A stretch of 64,000 bases of DNA from IMG/VR virus record IMGVR_UViG_3300045988_108509, positions 1 to 64,000 of that record, one strand, 5' to 3'. The notes under the pieces are model-generated. The model did no database searches. It was not told the DNA's origin and worked only from the letters and a program-made list of their open reading frames with translations. Within the stretch, counting starts at the first letter, position 1, and each line of letters starts with the position of its first letter. Made by a program: the position numbers and the translations under genes. This document shows, piece after piece, positions 1 to 57,702 of this stretch. The stretch comes from a virus.

Positions 1-20
1 GAGAGGGAGGGCACTCCCTA

Positions 21-200
21 CCAACAAAATTCAACTCCCTACCAACAAAATTCAATAGATAAGCGTTTTAAAACAGTGTTCTGTAGATCATTTCCACAAA
101 ATTCAATAGATAAGCGTTTTAAAACAGTGTTCTGTAGATCATTTCCACAAAATTCAATATGATAAGGGTTTAAAACAGCATTATATAGGTTCCTTCCAAC
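21..200. repeat. Tandem direct repeats: ~51-bp unit CAAAATTCAATAGATAAGCGTTTTAAAACAGTGTTCTGTAGATCATTTCCA at 46-96 and 97-147 (identical), degenerate third copy 148-~198, partial copy 21-45; candidate iteron/origin or terminal-repeat region
   Basis: Read directly: CAAAATTCAATAG motif recurs at 46, 97 and 148 with a 51-bp period. Non-coding, located upstream of the first gene. Confidence 0.8.
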
Positions 201-268: not shown

Positions 269-538
269 ATGGATGGTATGAACGTATATGACTTTGCGCC
301 TGACTTAGATTTGAGTAAGGAGGTAGAAGGTTCTATTTTCGGGGTAAAAGGAATAGAAGGCAGTGATGGAATAGTATATGCTAAGGTAGTTAGCTGTGTA
401 GACGTTAAGGATTACAGTTGTGATAGGTGTATTTTTTATGATTGTTATAAGGATAAATGTTTATTATCGCGTAGTGATAGTTGTATAGATGGAGATTGGA
501 TTTGTAGGTACGAACAGGCTGCCATAGAGGGGGAGTAG
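269..538 (+). CDS. small Cys-rich protein (paralog of 1689..1937 and 28712..28909)
   Basis: ORF track; shared pattern F-P-DL(S)-KE-G-F...VKVV...C-D-C-F...C-LS-S-DW-C with ORF 1689. Confidence 0.55.
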   Translation: MDGMNVYDFAPDLDLSKEVEGSIFGVKGIEGSDGIVYAKVVSCVDVKDYSCDRCIFYDCYKDKCLLSRSDSCIDGDWICRYEQAAIEGE

Positions 539-640
539 GCGGCGCCTTGGGCTAAGGCCTGCGGTTGTAGGTGGAACGTAGGTCGGAGCAGAGCCTGGAC
601 AGTTTATTGTGGAACGTAAAAAAGAAGGAGGAGATAGCGA

Positions 641-789
641 ATGTTTGTCATAGAAATAGTGCTGATAGCTATTTTAGATGCTATGGCGCAAGTGAGAAAA
701 ATTTCTTCATTAATTTTCTTATGCTTTAGACAGAATGCTCCCGTCTGCGAAGATCGGAGCATTTGCTTTATGGGATTCATGGTGCAGTA
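641..789 (+). CDS. 49-aa small ORF with strong SD (AAGAAGGAGGAG-N8-ATG); overlaps the conserved hairpin, so it is doubtful
   Basis: Hand translation gives MFVIEIVLIAILDAMAQVRKISSLIFLCFRQNAPVCEDRSICFMGFMVQ. It is below the ORF-track size cutoff. Confidence 0.2.
733..770 (+). terminator. conserved-loop hairpin family member D: stem GAATGCTCC/GGAGCATTT, loop CGTCTGCGAAGATC, then TTGCTTTA
   Basis: Inverted repeat read directly. The loop matches the family consensus YGGYCTGTGAAGRTAK. Confidence 0.45.
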
Positions 790-815
790 GGTCGGTTCGA
801 TTCCGGCGATCTCAC
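771..815 (+). other. tRNA-like T-arm/acceptor minihelix element 1 (TGGGATT...GTCGG-TTCGATT-CCGGC-GATCTCA-C); not a complete tRNA
   Basis: Canonical T-loop GGTTCGATTCC with a 5-bp T-stem. The 3' acceptor-like 7-mer pairs with TGGGATT at 771-777. No D-arm or anticodon arm could be placed. Confidence 0.4.
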
Positions 816-844
816 ACAATATTAAAAACAAAGGAGGAAAGAAA

Positions 845-1186
845 ATGAAAGATGGTATTACATTACATCCAGAACACGGATTGAATCCGTCTATAGAAGT
901 CTGCATGATATGTGGCGAAGAGATGGGGATTGTTTTATTAGGGAATAACATCAAAGGGCAGGCGCCGCATCATATATGCACGGGAGAAATATGTGACAAT
1001 TGCAAAAAGATAATAGATGACGGAGGTTGTTTTATTATCGAAGTCGAGGATGGATCAGATCAAAAGAATCCGTATCGTACAGGGAGATATTGCGCGATAA
1101 AGAAAGAAGCAGCAAAGAAAATACTTGGACAGGAGCATAATATTGTGTACATGGAAAAGTCTGCATACAGTCAAATAATACCATAA
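845..1186 (+). CDS. zinc-ribbon protein (CxxC...CxxC), hypothetical
   Basis: ORF track; strong SD AAAGGAGGAAAGAAA before the ATG. Confidence 0.6.
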   Translation: MKDGITLHPEHGLNPSIEVCMICGEEMGIVLLGNNIKGQAPHHICTGEICDNCKKIIDDGGCFIIEVEDGSDQKNPYRTGRYCAIKKEAAKKILGQEHNIVYMEKSAYSQIIP

Positions 1187-1200
1187 AAATAAAGAAGGAT

Positions 1201-1515
1201 ATGTTTACAAAAGAAGAGCGATTATTCATATGGAAAAAGGTATATGAGATGATTGATAGGTTAGAGAATGGGGAATACATATGTGTTGCGTTAAGAAATG
1301 TAGTGTTTATGTATCTCAAAACACATAAAAATATATATAAGTTTCGTTCAGACGAAATGGTGAGAATATATTTCCCGGAATTGGAGGAGAAGATAAGTAT
1401 GGCCACAGAACCAGAGGGAACAAGAGCGTTTTATGGGTGGTTTGGTTGTCTTAGTCCAGAAACGAAGGAGGTAAGGCTGAGTATTGTGAAAGATATTATA
1501 AAAGAATTAGAATAG
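1201..1515 (+). CDS. hypothetical protein
   Basis: ORF track; compact spacing after the previous gene. Confidence 0.5.
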   Translation: MFTKEERLFIWKKVYEMIDRLENGEYICVALRNVVFMYLKTHKNIYKFRSDEMVRIYFPELEEKISMATEPEGTRAFYGWFGCLSPETKEVRLSIVKDIIKELE

Positions 1516-1561
1516 TATTTTTGTTAATCTATTTTATTCATCAAATTAAGTTTTGGGCTTT

Positions 1562-1603
1562 GGCATGTCGGTTCGTGAGGATAGACATGCCTATTTCTGT
1601 ATC
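1562..1603 (+). terminator. conserved-loop hairpin family member E: stem GGCATGT/ACATGCC, loop CGGTTCGTGAGGATAG, then TATTTCTGTATC
   Basis: Inverted repeat read directly. The loop matches the family consensus. Confidence 0.45.
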
Positions 1604-1606
1604 ATA

Positions 1607-1668
1607 GAGGGATGACGCGGCGTGCCGGTGCGTATGTGCCGGTCCTGGTTCGATTCTGGGCATCTCAC
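1607..1668 (+). other. tRNA-like T-arm/acceptor element 2 (AGGGATG...CCTGG-TTCGATT-CTGGG-CATCTCA-C); downstream 25 nt nearly identical to element 1
   Basis: The GGTTCGATTC T-loop and the ATCTCACA(A/C)AATA(T)TAAAAAC tail are shared with 791-835. The 30-nt internal spacer is too short for D and anticodon arms. Confidence 0.4.
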
Positions 1669-1688
1669 AAATAATAAAACATAATTAT

Positions 1689-5592: not shown

Positions 5593-5630
5593 CGGCACTG
5601 GTCTGTGAAGATAGGTGCCGTTTTTTTATT
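5593..5630 (+). terminator. conserved-loop hairpin family member C: stem CGGCAC/GTGCCG, loop TGGTCTGTGAAGATAG, then TTTTTTTATT (the best intrinsic-terminator-like copy)
   Basis: Read directly. It lies 22 nt after the stop at 5571 and has a strong T-tract. Confidence 0.6.
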
Positions 5631-13172: not shown

Positions 13173-13904
13173 ATGGAATATAAAATGGTAACAATCCCGT
13201 TTGATTTAGAAACGGCGAAAAAAATAAACATAGGGGAAAGAGTAGGTCAGATTGTGACAGAGAAAGGACGAAATAGAGCAGAAATAGTATATGAAGACAA
13301 TTCGTCAATTTGTCCGTTATTGGTTGTAATTCATTCTATTTCTGTATCGGCAGATTGGTTTTCTGCTACAGGAAAAGCATTTAGCAGCGAAAATCGCCTC
13401 CTTCTTGAAGTCCCGGAATATACTACATTTAAAGATGGAGATGTGTTAAGCAACAAAGATGGAAGTTATATTTTTATTTTAAATATGCATGGGAAATATT
13501 TAACATCTTTGTATGCGAGTCTTACAATAAGAAGAGGTCTTACTATATCGGATAATTTGGCTGCACACGAAAACCACATAGAATGTTATAGACTTGCAAC
13601 AGATTCGGAAAAACAGAAGATGATTAAAGCGTTAAAGAAAAGCGAAAATCCTAAAGCAAAAGAATATCTGAAACGCTTCTTCGGGATTAAAGAAGAGCCG
13701 AAATATGAGTTTAAGCCGTTTGACAAAGTGCTGGTAAGAAAAGAAGGAAATAAAAAATGGAATATCAGTTTGTTTGCAAGGGAAATTGTGGACGATTATA
13801 ATGGATTGCCTTATAAGTACGAATGTTCTAATGGAACATTATGGGATTATTGTATTCATTTTGAGGGAAACGAGCATCTTTTAGGAACTGCTGAGGCGCT
13901 TTAA
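13173..13904 (+). CDS. hypothetical protein, tandem paralog 2
   Basis: ORF track; shares IPFDLETAKKI... and ...EGNEHLLGT with the previous gene. Confidence 0.55.
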   Translation: MEYKMVTIPFDLETAKKINIGERVGQIVTEKGRNRAEIVYEDNSSICPLLVVIHSISVSADWFSATGKAFSSENRLLLEVPEYTTFKDGDVLSNKDGSYIFILNMHGKYLTSLYASLTIRRGLTISDNLAAHENHIECYRLATDSEKQKMIKALKKSENPKAKEYLKRFFGIKEEPKYEFKPFDKVLVRKEGNKKWNISLFAREIVDDYNGLPYKYECSNGTLWDYCIHFEGNEHLLGTAEAL

Positions 13905-13964
13905 TGTACGCAAATTAGAGTTGCAAGAATATCTGTCCCCAGATATTTTGAAAATGGAACATAT

Positions 13965-14309
13965 ATGAAAATAGAATACATACAAAAAGGAAGGATAAAA
14001 TTCCACAGAGAAGATGGAACAATAGGTGAAAGTCCAGGATGTGGGTCTATTCTGGTTGCATTCGGCGAAGAGAATGCGGAAACATTAAGATCTTCTAATA
14101 TTGAAGGAAGATATATACAGGTCAATCAAGAACCGTGTAACACCCATGTAGATTGGGAACAACGTAGATACGAGATGGCAAAAACCATGCTTCCGATCAC
14201 ATCCGTATCAGGACGTGGACCTCACGGTGAATTAATATTGGAAGCGTGTGATAAGGCGGCTGAATTAGCTGTAATATATGCGGATGCTTTAATTAAAGAA
14301 CTGAAATGA
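13965..14309 (+). CDS. hypothetical protein
   Basis: ORF track. Confidence 0.5.
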   Translation: MKIEYIQKGRIKFHREDGTIGESPGCGSILVAFGEENAETLRSSNIEGRYIQVNQEPCNTHVDWEQRRYEMAKTMLPITSVSGRGPHGELILEACDKAAELAVIYADALIKELK

Positions 14310-14463
14310 AATCAACAGTATATGCTCATCCTGAGAATGATTATAGATTTTATGGACTTCCTCTATTTAAAGCTATGGCTGTAAAATACGGATGGAATAA
14401 TCCTATAGGGGAAGACAGTGGGAGAGAGAAAAAATATAATTCACAGTATTAAGTAGATATATT

Positions 14464-42422: not shown

Positions 42423-42456
42423 ACCGGTTCCCTATCATCTCTGACTGAGAACCGGT
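42423..42456 (-). terminator. hairpin ACCGGTTC-N18-GAACCGGT, followed on the minus strand by TTTCTTTTATGTT; terminator after the 2140-aa gene
   Basis: Read directly. Confidence 0.45.
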
Positions 42457-49075: not shown

Positions 49076-49105
49076 AAGCCATCTAACTTCTCAGTCTGAT
49101 GGCTT
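49076..49105. terminator. hairpin AAGCCATC-N14-GATGGCTT flanked by A-runs on + (T-runs on -); terminator separating the upstream small-gene block from the 2140-aa gene
   Basis: Read directly. Confidence 0.55.
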
Positions 49106-56994: not shown

Positions 56995-57281
56995 AATAAA
57001 AAAAATAGGCCCAAAAGAGAATGTCAGATCCCACTATGACAAACCCTAATGAGCCAAAAATATCTTTCAACATCAAACAACCAGAGGTGGGATCTCGTTG
57101 TTCATTGTTTCTGGAACAAAGATAGGAACAGGATTTTAAATAACAAATATTTTAATACTTTTTAAAACAAACCAGGGCCCGCATCACTGCGAACCCTGAT
57201 CTACACTAATCTAAACTAATACCATGAAAAACTTAAATCTAAAAACTAAAGAACAAACAAATGTATGAAAATGTATGGTTT

Positions 57282-57479: not shown

Positions 57480-57702
57480 TTCCTACTGTTATTAGTTACG
57501 TCCGGTTCTTACTTTTTCCTATTTCTATAATCCCTTCCTGAAACTAATATTGCAAACTTAATAAAAATAATTCATAAACAATGAAAATCTAACTTTTCTT
57601 GTATGTTATTGATATACGTGCATATATGAGAAAAGTGAGACTTTCACAAGCCTCACTTCCCAAATTATAACTATGAAAAAACTATATATATGTACACAAA
57701 AA

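What the first reader, a model, noticed from the sequence alone, without database searches (positions are those of the whole stretch)
733..1668. Two duplicated tRNA-like T-arm/acceptor elements fused to conserved-loop hairpins
At 771-815 and 1607-1668 there is a canonical tRNA T-loop GGTTCGATTC with a 5-bp T-stem and a 7-nt acceptor-like 3' strand, (G/C)ATCTCA. A complementary 5' 7-mer (TGGGATT or AGGGATG) lies 13 and 30 nt upstream. Neither copy has room for D or anticodon arms. The two copies also share 25 nt of non-tRNA sequence downstream (ATCTCACA-AATA-TAAAAAC), and each is preceded by a family hairpin. They look like acceptor/T-arm minihelices. These are substrates for CCA-adding enzyme, RNase P and EF-Tu mimicry. 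Alternatively they are duplicated tRNA 3'-end remnants such as att-like sequences.
Basis: seen in the sequence. Interest (0 to 1): 0.6.

Follow-up and report, generated by a model that had tools for sequence, protein, structure and literature searches.

The report
Anticodon-less tRNA mimics punctuating phage genes
A common human-gut phage carries short tRNA look-alikes (acceptor stem plus T arm, no anticodon arm) between its early genes, which most likely serve as cutting signals for the host's tRNA-processing enzymes, much like the 't-elements' of plant mitochondria.

Summary
Window 771-815 and 1608-1668 each hold a canonical T arm (5 bp, loop UUCGAUU) stacked on a 6-7 bp acceptor stem. Copy 1 has a 13-nt linker. 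Copy 2 has a 29-nt linker that contains an 8-bp hairpin. A structure scan finds exactly these two in 64 kb, against 0.08 in shuffles. ARAGORN and Rfam call no tRNA, tmRNA or Y RNA.

The window is a csAssE-Sib-like gut phage, a distant crAss relative. About 75 of 80 related genomes sampled independently of the motif keep both copies. Many also carry a third copy upstream of the window. Two unrelated phages have the same architecture.

Copy 1's acceptor strands and T loop are invariant in 79 genomes, while its linker varies like third codon positions. Seven of the 12 stacked pairs covary across element types.

No bacterial genome holds a tRNA with this 3' end, and no integrase is annotated, so an att origin is rejected.

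The "family hairpins" are a genome-wide terminator-like family. One of them precedes a genuine tRNA-Met at the same 6-nt spacing.

Best reading (about 0.45): in-line RNase P/RNase Z processing signals, like t-elements. This is inferred, not shown. Rivals are a trans-acting tRNA mimic, or decayed tRNAs kept as recombination linkers.

The parts
733..764 (+). Hairpin 1: a 9-bp outer stem, a 1x1 C.C internal loop, a 4-bp inner stem that opens with a G.U pair, a GCGA tetraloop, then a U-rich run. It belongs to a genome-wide terminator-like hairpin family.
   Evidence: The population shows compensatory changes in the stem (G-C<->A-U, U-A<->C-G, C-G<->A-U).
765..770 (+). 6-nt spacer (GCTTTA) between hairpin 1 and the tRNA-like element. 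A family hairpin and the genuine tRNA-Met of a related genome are separated by the same 6 nt.
   Evidence: in L002 the hairpin is at 545-576 and tRNA-Met starts at 583.
771..815 (+). tRNA-like element copy 1. Acceptor 5' strand 771-777, 13-nt linker 778-790, T arm 791-807 (loop UUCGAUU), acceptor 3' strand 808-814, discriminator-position C815. No CCA is encoded.
   Evidence: The acceptor strands, T loop and C815 (22 nt) are invariant in 79 genomes sampled independently of the motif, while the linker has pi 0.115.
816..844 (+). A-rich leader with AAAGGAGG, running up to the ATG of ORF 845-1186. A gene presence/absence junction lies inside this tail.
   Evidence: In 50 of 79 related genomes an extra gene follows copy 1 here.
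1562..1591 (+). Hairpin 2 of the same family: 8-bp outer stem, G.A internal loop, 4-bp inner stem starting with G.U, GUGA loop, then a U-rich run.
   Evidence: helix 1, 99.1% of cells paired.
1608..1668 (+). tRNA-like element copy 2. Acceptor 5' strand 1608-1614 (A1.A72 mismatch, then 6 bp), linker 1615-1623, central 8-bp hairpin with GUAU loop 1624-1643, T arm 1644-1660, acceptor 3' strand 1661-1667, C1668.
   Evidence: The central hairpin is deleted in a few genomes (15-nt linker). The T loop is deleted in one genome and the copy is absent in two of 80.
1669..1688 (+). A-rich leader up to the ATG of ORF 1689-1937. This is a second presence/absence junction.
   Evidence: In 64 of 77 related genomes copy 2 is followed directly by the ORF 2099 homologue.

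Best explanation
The two elements, plus a third just upstream of the window in related genomes, are tRNA-derived 't-element'-like RNA structures. They sit on the coding strand of the phage's early gene block.

Each folds into the 12-bp acceptor/T-arm coaxial stack with a canonical T loop. That is the part of a tRNA which RNase P, RNase Z and CCA-adding enzyme recognise. The D and anticodon arms are replaced by a freely evolving linker.

Proposed mechanism (inferred):
1. The early genes are transcribed through these elements.
2. Host RNase P cuts at the 5' end of the mimic. This leaves the upstream message ending a few nucleotides after a stable GNRA hairpin, which protects it from 3' exonucleases.
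3. RNase Z cuts after the discriminator-position C, since no CCA is encoded. This releases the downstream message with a short, unstructured, A-rich leader in front of its start codon.
4. The excised 45-61-nt mimic is a by-product that may receive CCA.

Shown: the structure, its conservation, its position and its distribution.
Inferred: transcription through the element, the cleavages, and their effect on expression.
For: 1. Anatomy. Both copies have a 5-bp T stem, the loop UUCGAUU and an abutting 6-7 bp acceptor stem. There are exactly two such sites in the window, against 0.08 in shuffles.

2. They are not tRNA, tmRNA or Y RNA by ARAGORN or Rfam.

3. Constraint falls where this model predicts. 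In 79 genomes chosen through a neighbouring protein, copy 1's acceptor strands, T loop and position 73 have pi = 0 at 22 of 22 sites. The linker has pi 0.115, equal to third codon positions of the adjacent ORF (0.115; 32% of those sites are polymorphic). By my arithmetic, 0 of 22 polymorphic sites has a probability of roughly 2e-4 at that rate, if sites are treated as independent.

4. Covariation. Across the 12 variants and types compared, 92.4% of cells in the 12-bp stack are paired, against 72.7% in shuffles (0 of 500 reach the observed value). Seven of 12 pairs change on both sides.

5. Linker length and content are free: 13, 15, 20, 29, 32 and 33 nt, against 39-55 nt in real tRNAs.

6. Recurrent context. 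All three csAssE elements, and the independent ones in L004 and L016, lie on the coding strand. Each sits 0-17 nt after a stable hairpin and about 20-65 nt before the next start codon.

7. A genuine tRNA-Met in the same phage lineage sits 6 nt after a family hairpin, and tRNA-Cys ends 17 nt before the next ATG. Co-transcription of tRNAs with mRNAs, and the hairpin-to-tRNA arrangement, are therefore normal in this phage. The mimics occupy tRNA positions.

8. The phage's own tRNAs also lack an encoded CCA.

9. Precedent. Plant mitochondrial t-elements share the GGTTCRANYCC motif, define mRNA ends through RNase P and RNase Z, and are CCA-tailed but not aminoacylated (PMC1920247, PMC11658184). That acceptor/T-arm model substrates are cleaved by bacterial RNase P is established knowledge recalled from memory (McClain, Guerrier-Takada and Altman 1987), not checked here.
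Against: - There are no expression or end-mapping data, so transcription through the elements is assumed.
- The preceding hairpins carry U-rich tails and may terminate most transcripts before the element.
- Position 1:72 is unpaired in 9 of 12 variants, and the -1 nucleotides are not uniformly the preferred U.
- Copy 2 is dispensable in nature. It is absent in 2, has lost its T loop in 1 and is diverged in 2 of 80 genomes, and its central hairpin is deleted in a few others.
- Within copy 2, the population substitution pattern (98.6% paired, mostly through G.U intermediates) does not exceed the shuffles.
- The whole sample is one roughly 95%-identical species-level cluster, so deep conservation could not be tested. 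Apparently diverged anchors turned out to be a locally hypervariable gene with conserved flanks.
- The nearest deposited relative, Cellulophaga phage phi17:2, has no such elements.
Confidence: 0.45

Rival explanations
1. Trans-acting small tRNA mimics. The excised, CCA-tailed 45-61-nt RNAs are the functional product. They might be decoys or sponges for host enzymes or defence toxins that act on tRNA acceptor ends, or partners of the phage's own RNA machinery (Ro60/Y RNA, polynucleotide kinase-phosphatase, a CCA-adding-like nucleotidyltransferase).
For: - The reference genome csAssE-Sib encodes a Ro60-related protein next to a YrlA-like RNA (28.5 bits, E 0.007) and two odd tRNAs. It also encodes a PNK/3'-phosphatase, an NrnA-like phosphodiesterase and a 220-aa 'polyA polymerase/CCA-adding' nucleotidyltransferase. 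This lineage therefore invests in tRNA-like RNA biology.
- The strict invariance of copy 1's acceptor strands, T loop and C73 fits this reading as well as it fits a cis signal.
- The part of the copy 1 linker nearest the acceptor (CAUGGUG, containing GG) is invariant, while the rest of the linker varies. That is consistent with a D-loop-like contact to the T loop.
Against: - The nucleotidyltransferase gene is absent from this window's phage. There is no tblastn hit, and its 2.5-kb block is replaced.
- The Ro60 locus has its own YrlA-like RNA about 75 kb away.
- The elements always lie in line immediately upstream of a gene. No promoter or terminator of their own is evident.
- Copy 2 is lost in some genomes.
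Confidence: 0.15
2. Decayed tRNA genes with no RNA function. On this view they are internally deleted remnants of a once larger phage tRNA array. They persist as conserved intergenic 'linkers' at which homologous recombination swaps or deletes small gene cassettes, comparable to the promoter/stem-loop cassettes of T4-type phages.
For: - Gene content changes exactly at the 3' tail of each element. An extra gene follows copy 1 in 50 of 79 genomes. ORF 1689 and its neighbour are missing after copy 2 in 64 of 77.
- Recombinants between copy 1 and copy 2 exist, including one joined inside the T loop.
- The mimics lie downstream of a genuine four-tRNA cluster, on the same strand.
- Overall diversity of the elements (3.7-4.6%) is close to that of their neighbours.
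- Copy 2 can be lost.
Against: - Neutral decay would not leave 22 of 22 acceptor and T-loop sites invariant next to a linker that evolves like synonymous sites.
- It would not produce both-sided compensatory changes in 7 of 12 stacked pairs across types, nor pair-preserving swaps such as UC<->CU in the T stem.
- Five independent elements in three unrelated phages have all lost the anticodon arm while keeping a perfect T loop and acceptor pairing.
- A role as recombination substrate is compatible with, and probably a by-product of, a conserved functional sequence.
Confidence: 0.2
3. Minimal tmRNA-like or alanine-accepting minihelices. On this view they are tRNA-like-domain-only ribosome-rescue RNAs, as in jakobid mitochondria, or AlaRS/EF-Tu ligands.
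For: - G2-C71 and G3.U70 are present in copies 1 and 2 of the window.
- There is a weak Rfam match of 1644-1750 to permuted tmRNA (12.8 bits, E 5.5).
- ARAGORN at an 80% threshold proposes a permuted tmRNA over 727-1277.
Against: - Both matches are far below threshold. The proposed partner strand and 'tag' lie inside ordinary ORFs (1689-1937 and the end of 845-1186). ORF 1689 is absent from most relatives.
- G3.U70 is replaced by A3-U70 in several copy 2 variants, by G3-C70 in the third element, and by A3-U70 in L004 and L016.
- The discriminator is C, not A, and pair 1:72 is usually unpaired.
- Rfam mt-tmRNA and tmRNA models give no hit.
Confidence: 0.04
4. att-site remnants: copies of a host tRNA 3' end left by integration or excision.
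For: Only the general fact that integrases often target the T arm and acceptor 3' end of tRNA or tmRNA genes.
Against: - A scan of one genome from each of 185,579 bacterial and archaeal species for GGTTCGATTCYGGSSATCTCA gave 5 hits. None is a tRNA. One is the phage itself, on a 3.9-kb contig binned as Veillonella.
- No integrase is annotated in the 151-kb reference genome.
- An att core would not need the complementary 5' strand, which is present and covaries.
Confidence: 0.02

Closest known systems
t-elements of plant mitochondria (Hanic-Joyce 1990; Forner et al. 2007, PMC1920247; PMC11658184)
   Same: - tRNA-derived, non-cloverleaf structures that keep a perfectly conserved GGTTCRANYCC T arm and acceptor pairing.
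- They lie in line next to protein genes.
- No CCA is encoded.
- They define mRNA 5' and 3' ends through RNase P and RNase Z.
- The excised element is CCA-tailed but not aminoacylated.
- They often work together with stem-loops at mRNA 3' ends.
   Different: - The setting is organellar, not a phage.
- t-elements are usually close to tRNA length with degenerate arms. Here copy 1 has no D or anticodon arm at all.
- Processing has been shown experimentally for t-elements. Here it is only inferred.
mascRNA / MALAT1-type tRNA-like 3'-end processing modules
   Same: A tRNA-like fold embedded in a longer transcript is cut by RNase P and RNase Z. The upstream RNA is then protected by a nearby stable structure.
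   Different: These are eukaryotic nuclear long non-coding RNAs. mascRNA is a near-complete cloverleaf, and the upstream protector is a triple helix rather than a GNRA hairpin.
tRNA-like domain of tmRNA, including the domain-only tmRNA of jakobid mitochondria
   Same: An acceptor stem plus T arm with a reduced D region and no anticodon arm. G3.U70 is present in the window's two copies.
   Different: There is no G1-C72 and no A73. G3.U70 is not conserved across variants and types. Rfam finds no tmRNA match, and nothing points to SmpB or a tag frame.
YrlA / bacterial Y RNAs (Chen et al. 2014, PMC4201824)
   Same: A tRNA mimic lacking an anticodon arm. YrlA RNAs are found in phages that encode Ro60, and this phage lineage encodes a Ro60-related protein.
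   Different: YrlA is circularly permuted relative to tRNA: its ends lie in a Ro60-binding stem and its acceptor stem is closed by a loop. It is encoded next to Ro60. The elements here have the normal tRNA topology, lie about 75 kb from the Ro60 gene, and give no Rfam YrlA hit. The real YrlA-like hit is at the Ro60 locus.
RNase III processing sites between T7 early genes
   Same: In function only: host-nuclease cutting signals between the genes of an early polycistronic transcript, which leave hairpin-ended stable mRNAs.
   Different: The nuclease and the structure are different. This comparison rests on memory, not on a test.
PeSL (promoter-early stem-loop) cassettes of T4-type phages
   Same: Repeated intergenic regulatory modules that flank small variable early ORFs and act as recombination points.
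   Different: PeSLs are a promoter plus a stem-loop, with no tRNA-like part. This comparison rests on memory, not on a test.

Membership tests
tRNA (Rfam RF00005 / ARAGORN) | A complete cloverleaf with D arm and anticodon arm (7-nt loop), scoring above threshold. | tested here: not met
   ARAGORN finds 0 genes in the window. Rfam has no hit at gathering thresholds and no RF00005 hit at E<=10. Linkers are 13 and 29 nt, against 39-55 nt in real tRNAs. Relaxed ARAGORN gives only a 4-nt anticodon or an intron model for copy 2.
tRNA (Rfam RF00005 / ARAGORN) | A T arm (5 bp, loop UUCRANY, G53-C61) stacked on a 7-bp acceptor stem. | tested here: met
   Covariation is shown.
t-element-like processing signal | A tRNA-like acceptor/T-arm structure with a conserved GGTTCRANYCC motif, in line on the coding strand next to a gene, with no encoded CCA. 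| tested here: met
   GGTTCGATTCC in copy 1 matches the motif. Copy 2 has GGTTCGATTCT, which fits the motif except for its last base (T where the motif has C).
t-element-like processing signal | Transcript ends coincide with the element's 5' end (RNase P) and with the discriminator (RNase Z). The excised element carries non-templated C/A. | not testable with these tools
   This needs RNA end mapping in infected cells or in vitro cleavage.
tmRNA / tRNA-like-domain-only tmRNA | G1-C72, G3.U70 and A73 (alanine identity), plus a match to tmRNA covariance models. | tested here: not met
   Pair 1:72 is U-A in copy 1 and unpaired in copy 2, and position 73 is C. G3.U70 is lost in some variants and in other types. 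The only match is tmRNA_permuted at 12.8 bits against a gathering score of 47, E 5.5.
YrlA (Y RNA-like) | A match to RF02553, permuted topology with a terminal Ro60-binding stem, and a location adjacent to the Ro60 gene. | tested here: not met
   There is no RF02553 hit in 500-1900 at E<=10. No extended terminal stem was seen on inspection. The Ro60 gene lies outside the window, about 75 kb away in the reference genome, and has its own YrlA-like RNA.
tRNA-derived att site | Identity to the 3' end of a host tRNA or tmRNA gene, and an integrase in the phage. | tested here: not met
   there are 5 hits in 596 Gb and none is a tRNA. No integrase is annotated.
Intrinsic-terminator-like hairpin family (the 'family hairpins') | A G+C-rich stem-loop followed by a U-rich tract, downstream of genes on their strand. 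| tested here: inconclusive
   Six or more members have T-rich tails on the strand of the flanking genes. The generic terminator scan did not list them, because of the internal loop. One member sits 6 nt before a genuine tRNA-Met, which implies read-through or a processing role.

The most novel reading that the evidence does not exclude
The excised minihelices are themselves the product. This would be a phage-encoded family of anticodon-less, CCA-tailed tRNA mimics that act in trans. They could soak up or misdirect host factors or defence toxins that recognise tRNA acceptor/T-arm ends. Alternatively they could work with the lineage's own Ro60/Y-RNA and RNA-repair genes.
Probability: 0.12. Interest if true: 0.8.

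Novelty: new variant of a known kind. Interest (0 to 1): 0.55.

Why it matters
If the elements are RNase P/RNase Z punctuation marks, a very common human-gut phage lineage (more than 170 contigs in IMG/VR) organises its early messages by the tRNA-punctuation principle known from mitochondria. I found no description of this for phages.

It would explain how tightly packed early genes with terminator-like hairpins between them are expressed and separated. It would also give annotators a class of 'tRNA-like, not tRNA' features that standard tRNA finders miss.

The same modules mark the breakpoints of gene-cassette gain and loss, so they also bear on how such phages shuffle accessory genes.

The elements are short, have natural knock-out variants and are easy to test, which makes the hypothesis directly checkable.

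Tried and rejected
1. Complete tRNA. Standard and relaxed ARAGORN and Rfam were run. Rejected.

2. Permuted or two-piece tmRNA. This was suggested by a weak Rfam hit and by ARAGORN at ps80. The partner strand and the tag lie in ordinary ORFs, and one of those ORFs is absent from most relatives. Rejected.

3. att origin. Tested with a genome-wide scan and the annotation. Rejected.

4. YrlA. No hit here; the real YrlA-like RNA sits at the Ro60 locus.

5. Partnership with the phage CCA-adding-like nucleotidyltransferase. The gene is missing from this window's phage, so it is not an obligate partner.

6. Deep conservation test. I fetched genomes whose ORF 1201 homologue is only 68-71% identical. 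The divergence is confined to that one gene, and its flanks are 92-100% identical. No deeper lineage was reached, so the test is uninformative.

7. Elements in the nearest deposited relative, Cellulophaga phage phi17:2. None were found; it has only genuine tRNAs.

8. Sigma-70-type promoter and terminator scan. Promoter-like sites are only marginally above the shuffled expectation (40 against 32.5), and none obviously serves the elements. A by-eye search for Bacteroidota-type -7/-33 motifs was inconclusive.

9. Covariation within copy 2 in the population. Nearly all changes preserve pairing, but through G.U intermediates, and the signal does not exceed shuffles. I do not use it as evidence.

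10. Pfam on the flanking small proteins gave no hits.

11. Literature search for csAssE found nothing relevant.
Full report
**What is there**

Copy 1 (771-815):
- Sequence: UGGGAUU, then a 13-nt linker, then GUCGG-UUCGAUU-CCGGC, then GAUCUCA, then C.
- That is a 7-bp acceptor stem (with G3.U70 and U7.G66) stacked on a 5-bp T stem with a canonical T loop.

Copy 2 (1608-1668):
- Sequence: AGGGAUG, ACGCGGCGU, an 8-bp hairpin with a GUAU loop (1624-1643), CCUGG-UUCGAUU-CUGGG, CAUCUCA, then C.
- It has six acceptor pairs plus an A.A mismatch at 1:72.
- So copy 2 does have a central arm, but its 4-nt loop cannot present an anticodon.

RNAfold recovers these helices. The fold energies are not better than shuffles, which is normal for short AT-rich pieces.

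GGTTCGATTC occurs exactly twice in the window. A purpose-built scan looked for a G53-C61-closed 5-bp T stem, a UUYRANY loop and an abutting 3' strand with a complementary 5' strand of at least 6 contiguous bp within 70 nt. It finds exactly these two sites in 64 kb on both strands, against a mean of 0.08 in 50 shuffles. On a 145-kb control phage with 23 annotated tRNAs, every site the scan returned was a genuine tRNA, with linkers of 40-55 nt.

**What it is not**

- ARAGORN finds no tRNA or tmRNA in the window.
- Rfam has no hit at gathering thresholds.
- With permissive thresholds on 500-1900, Rfam gives no tRNA, tmRNA or YrlA hit. The only related match is to permuted tmRNA, at 12.8 bits and E 5.5. 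Its supposed partner strand lies inside ORF 1689-1937.
- ARAGORN with thresholds lowered to 80% gives only contrived models for copy 2 and nothing for copy 1. It also proposes a 'permuted tmRNA' whose tag is simply the C-terminus of ORF 845-1186.

**Where the window comes from**

The window is 94% identical to phage csAssE-Sib (OR575929, 151 kb, human gut).

Its large terminase is 33% identical to those of Cellulophaga phages phi17:2 and phi4:1, and 22-25% identical to Crassvirales. The annotation uses crAss-type structural names. A Bacteroidota host is therefore likely, though this is an inference.

The reference genome has:
- six annotated tRNAs;
- a Ro60-related protein next to a YrlA-like RNA (28.5 bits, E 0.007);
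- a PNK/3'-phosphatase, an NrnA-like phosphodiesterase and a small CCA-adding-like nucleotidyltransferase;
- two TnpB genes and a diversity-generating retroelement;
- no annotated integrase.

The nucleotidyltransferase block is missing from this window's phage.

**Distribution**

A pattern scan of IMG/VR returned 119 or more stretches. Almost all are csAssE-like phages carrying both copies.

That set is biased by the pattern, so I drew a second sample through the protein encoded between the two copies. Results for those 80 genomes:
- 75 of 80 have both elements intact.
- Copy 1 is present in all 79 in which the region is covered.
- Copy 2 is absent in 2, has lost its T loop in 1 and is diverged in 2.

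Many genomes carry a third element about 1.9 kb upstream of copy 1, which is outside this window. Its sequence is UGGUUGU, a 32-nt linker with one arm, UCCGG-UUCGAUU-CCGGA, GCAACCU, then C. Its inner arm shows compensatory changes (AUCU/GGAU against AUUC/GAAU).

Two unrelated phages picked up by the sequence pattern alone have the same build. Both have a perfect T arm and 6 acceptor bp with a 1:72 mismatch, and RNAfold predicts a hairpin just upstream:
- L004 has a 20-nt linker with a D-arm-like hairpin.
- L016, L018 and L093 have a 33-nt linker, and an RBS and start codon follow closely. In L004 the next ATG lies about 65 nt downstream.

**Evidence for selection on the structure**

In the unbiased sample, copy 1 shows this pattern:

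| Region of copy 1 or neighbour | Nucleotide diversity |
|---|---|
| Acceptor 5' strand, T loop, acceptor 3' strand plus C73 (22 nt) | 0 |
| Linker | 0.115 |
| Third codon positions of the adjacent ORF 845 | 0.115 (32% of sites polymorphic) |
| T stem | 0.065 |

At the third-codon rate, finding 0 of 22 polymorphic sites has a probability of roughly 2e-4. This is my arithmetic and treats sites as independent. The T stem varies only by a UC<->CU swap that keeps both pairs.

Across 12 variants and types, the 12-bp acceptor/T stack is 92.4% paired, against 72.7% in column shuffles (0 of 500 reach the observed value). Seven of 12 pairs change on both sides. One caveat applies: the 5' strands were located by their complementarity.

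Within copy 2, the population changes are almost all pair-preserving (98.6% of cells). However, they run through G.U intermediates and do not exceed shuffles, so I do not count that as evidence.

An attempt to reach deeper lineages failed. Genomes with only 68-71% identity in the anchor protein turned out to have 92-100% identical flanks. That gene is locally hypervariable.

**The hairpins**

The two preceding hairpins belong to a family with at least six members in the window: + strand 733, 1562, 2387 and 5593; - strand 42423 and 49076.

The shared design is:
- an outer stem of 6-10 bp;
- a 1x1 internal loop;
- a 4-bp inner stem that always opens with a G.U pair;
- a GNRA loop;
- a T-rich tail.

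Hairpin 1 shows three fully compensatory pair changes in the population.

The hairpins look like intrinsic terminators or 3'-end stabilisers, and they are not specific to the tRNA-like elements. One family member sits 6 nt upstream of the genuine tRNA-Met that opens the phage's four-tRNA cluster (L002 545-576, tRNA at 583). That is the same spacing as between hairpin 1 and copy 1. The last tRNA of that cluster ends 17 nt before the next ATG.

So the arrangement hairpin, then tRNA, then gene is a normal layout in this phage, and the mimics occupy the tRNA position.

**att hypothesis**

A scan of one genome from each of 185,579 species for the 21-nt T-loop-to-acceptor consensus of both copies gave five hits:
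- Four lie in unrelated sequence with no tRNA call.
- The fifth is the phage itself, on a 3.9-kb contig binned as Veillonella.

With no integrase annotated, and with a covarying 5' strand that an att core would not need, this alternative is rejected.

**Recombination junctions**

Gene content changes exactly at the A-rich tail after each element:
- After copy 1, an extra 134-aa gene follows in 50 of 79 genomes. The window has the short form.
- After copy 2, the ORF 1689 and ORF 1921 pair is present in only 13 of 77 genomes. The window has it.

Recombinants between the copies exist, including one joined within the T loop. The elements therefore also act as homology linkers. This may be a by-product of their conservation, or, in the rival view, the reason they persist.

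**Mechanism proposed**

The parts under constraint are the acceptor/T stack, the T loop and position 73. These are the parts recognised by RNase P, RNase Z and CCA-adding enzyme. The parts needed for decoding or for most aminoacyl-tRNA synthetases are absent or free to vary.

Combined with the in-line position, the absence of an encoded CCA, the upstream hairpin and the short A-rich leader downstream, the best-supported model is a phage equivalent of plant-mitochondrial t-elements:
1. RNase P cuts at +1 and leaves a hairpin-protected upstream RNA.
2. RNase Z cuts after C73 and liberates the next message with an unstructured leader.

This is an inference. No expression data exist, and the hairpins may terminate most transcription before the elements.

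Alternatives kept open:
- a trans-acting mimic, given the lineage's Ro60, Y-RNA and RNA-repair genes;
- non-functional tRNA remnants retained as recombination linkers.

An alanine-accepting or tmRNA-like role is unlikely. G3.U70 is replaced in several variants and types, and the discriminator is C.

**Verdict**

The finding is a real, conserved and statistically supported family of anticodon-less tRNA mimics in a widespread gut phage. It is best classed as a new, phage-borne variant of tRNA-like processing elements.

The literature searches found no prior description in phages. Interest is moderate to good, and the hypothesis is easily testable.

Noticed in passing
window 733-764, 1562-1591, 2387-2420, 5593-5620 (+); 42423-42456, 49076-49105 (-); looser members 57167-57204 and 57630-57661 (-): A hairpin family with a strikingly fixed inner design: a 1x1 internal loop (usually N.A), a 4-bp inner stem that always begins with a G.U pair, a GNRA tetraloop, then a T-rich tail. 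It is probably the phage's intrinsic terminator or 3'-stabiliser. The invariant G.U/A motif could be a protein or RNase recognition site.
   Followed up: partly
window 13-197: Tandem direct repeats at the start of the window: 2 x 21 nt (13-54) and 3 x 51 nt (45-197, each containing TTTTAAAACAG...TCTGTAG). Diverged versions occur in csAssE-Sib (L001 640-800). They lie near the genome end, upstream of the first early gene, and may be early promoters, operators or terminal-repeat features.
   Followed up: no
L121 about 500-590 (- strand; csAssE-Sib record); L131 about 190-330; L209 and L210: A third tRNA-like element of the same kind lies about 1.9 kb upstream of copy 1, outside the window. It has a 32-nt linker forming one arm with a 5-nt loop, and G3-C70. 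It is followed 26 nt later by an ATG.
   Followed up: partly
L207 22590-23090 (csAssE-Sib record 72590-73090): Upstream of the phage's Ro60-related gene lie a YrlA-like RNA (28.5 bits) and the annotated 'tRNA-Tyr' and 'tRNA-Lys'. Each of the three is preceded by a repeated GGTGATGG...GTTACTTCGAA motif, and both tRNAs have mismatched first pairs. They may be a cluster of Y-RNA-like molecules rather than ordinary tRNAs.
   Followed up: partly
window 13894-14332, against L208 36725-39237: The window's phage lacks a roughly 2.5-kb block of csAssE-Sib that contains a 220-aa 'polyA polymerase/CCA-adding enzyme'-like nucleotidyltransferase. This block is an accessory cassette in the lineage.
   Followed up: partly
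window 1201-1515: ORF 1201 (104 aa, no Pfam hit) is locally hypervariable. Alleles of 68-71% amino-acid identity sit between flanks that are 92-100% identical in DNA. This suggests diversifying selection or allele swapping by recombination at the conserved intergenic modules.
   Followed up: partly
window 1516-1561: The 46 nt between the stop codon of ORF 1201 and hairpin 2 are almost invariant (pi 0.0006 in 78 genomes; 2.4% mismatch in the other sample, against 6.9% in the ORF). Part of this may be linkage to the anchor gene used for sampling, but a promoter or other signal is possible.
   Followed up: no
window 269-538 and 1689-1937: These two small Cys-rich ORFs are paralogues (36% identity over 67 aa, E 8e-7). 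ORF 1689 follows copy 2 directly and is absent from most related genomes.
   Followed up: partly
window 641-790: In most relatives the small hydrophobic ORF upstream of hairpin 1 ends at a TAA (ATGGCGTAAGTGAG). In the window that codon is CAA, so the mechanical ORF runs on through hairpin 1 into the tRNA-like element. The extension is probably not functional coding sequence.
   Followed up: no
L004 8360-8470 (- strand): An unrelated phage contig carries, besides a tRNA-Glu and a minihelix element, an odd tRNA-like sequence (ACACCCTATCGTCTAATGG ... TAGGGTGT). It has a normal-looking acceptor stem and D arm but a long insert. It may be an intron-containing or degenerate tRNA.
   Followed up: no
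L205 (NZ_DXLG01000138.1): A 3.9-kb contig of this phage is binned in a 'Veillonella sp.' MAG. This is either a binning artefact or a weak host hint that conflicts with the Bacteroidota affinities of the phage's proteins.
   Followed up: no
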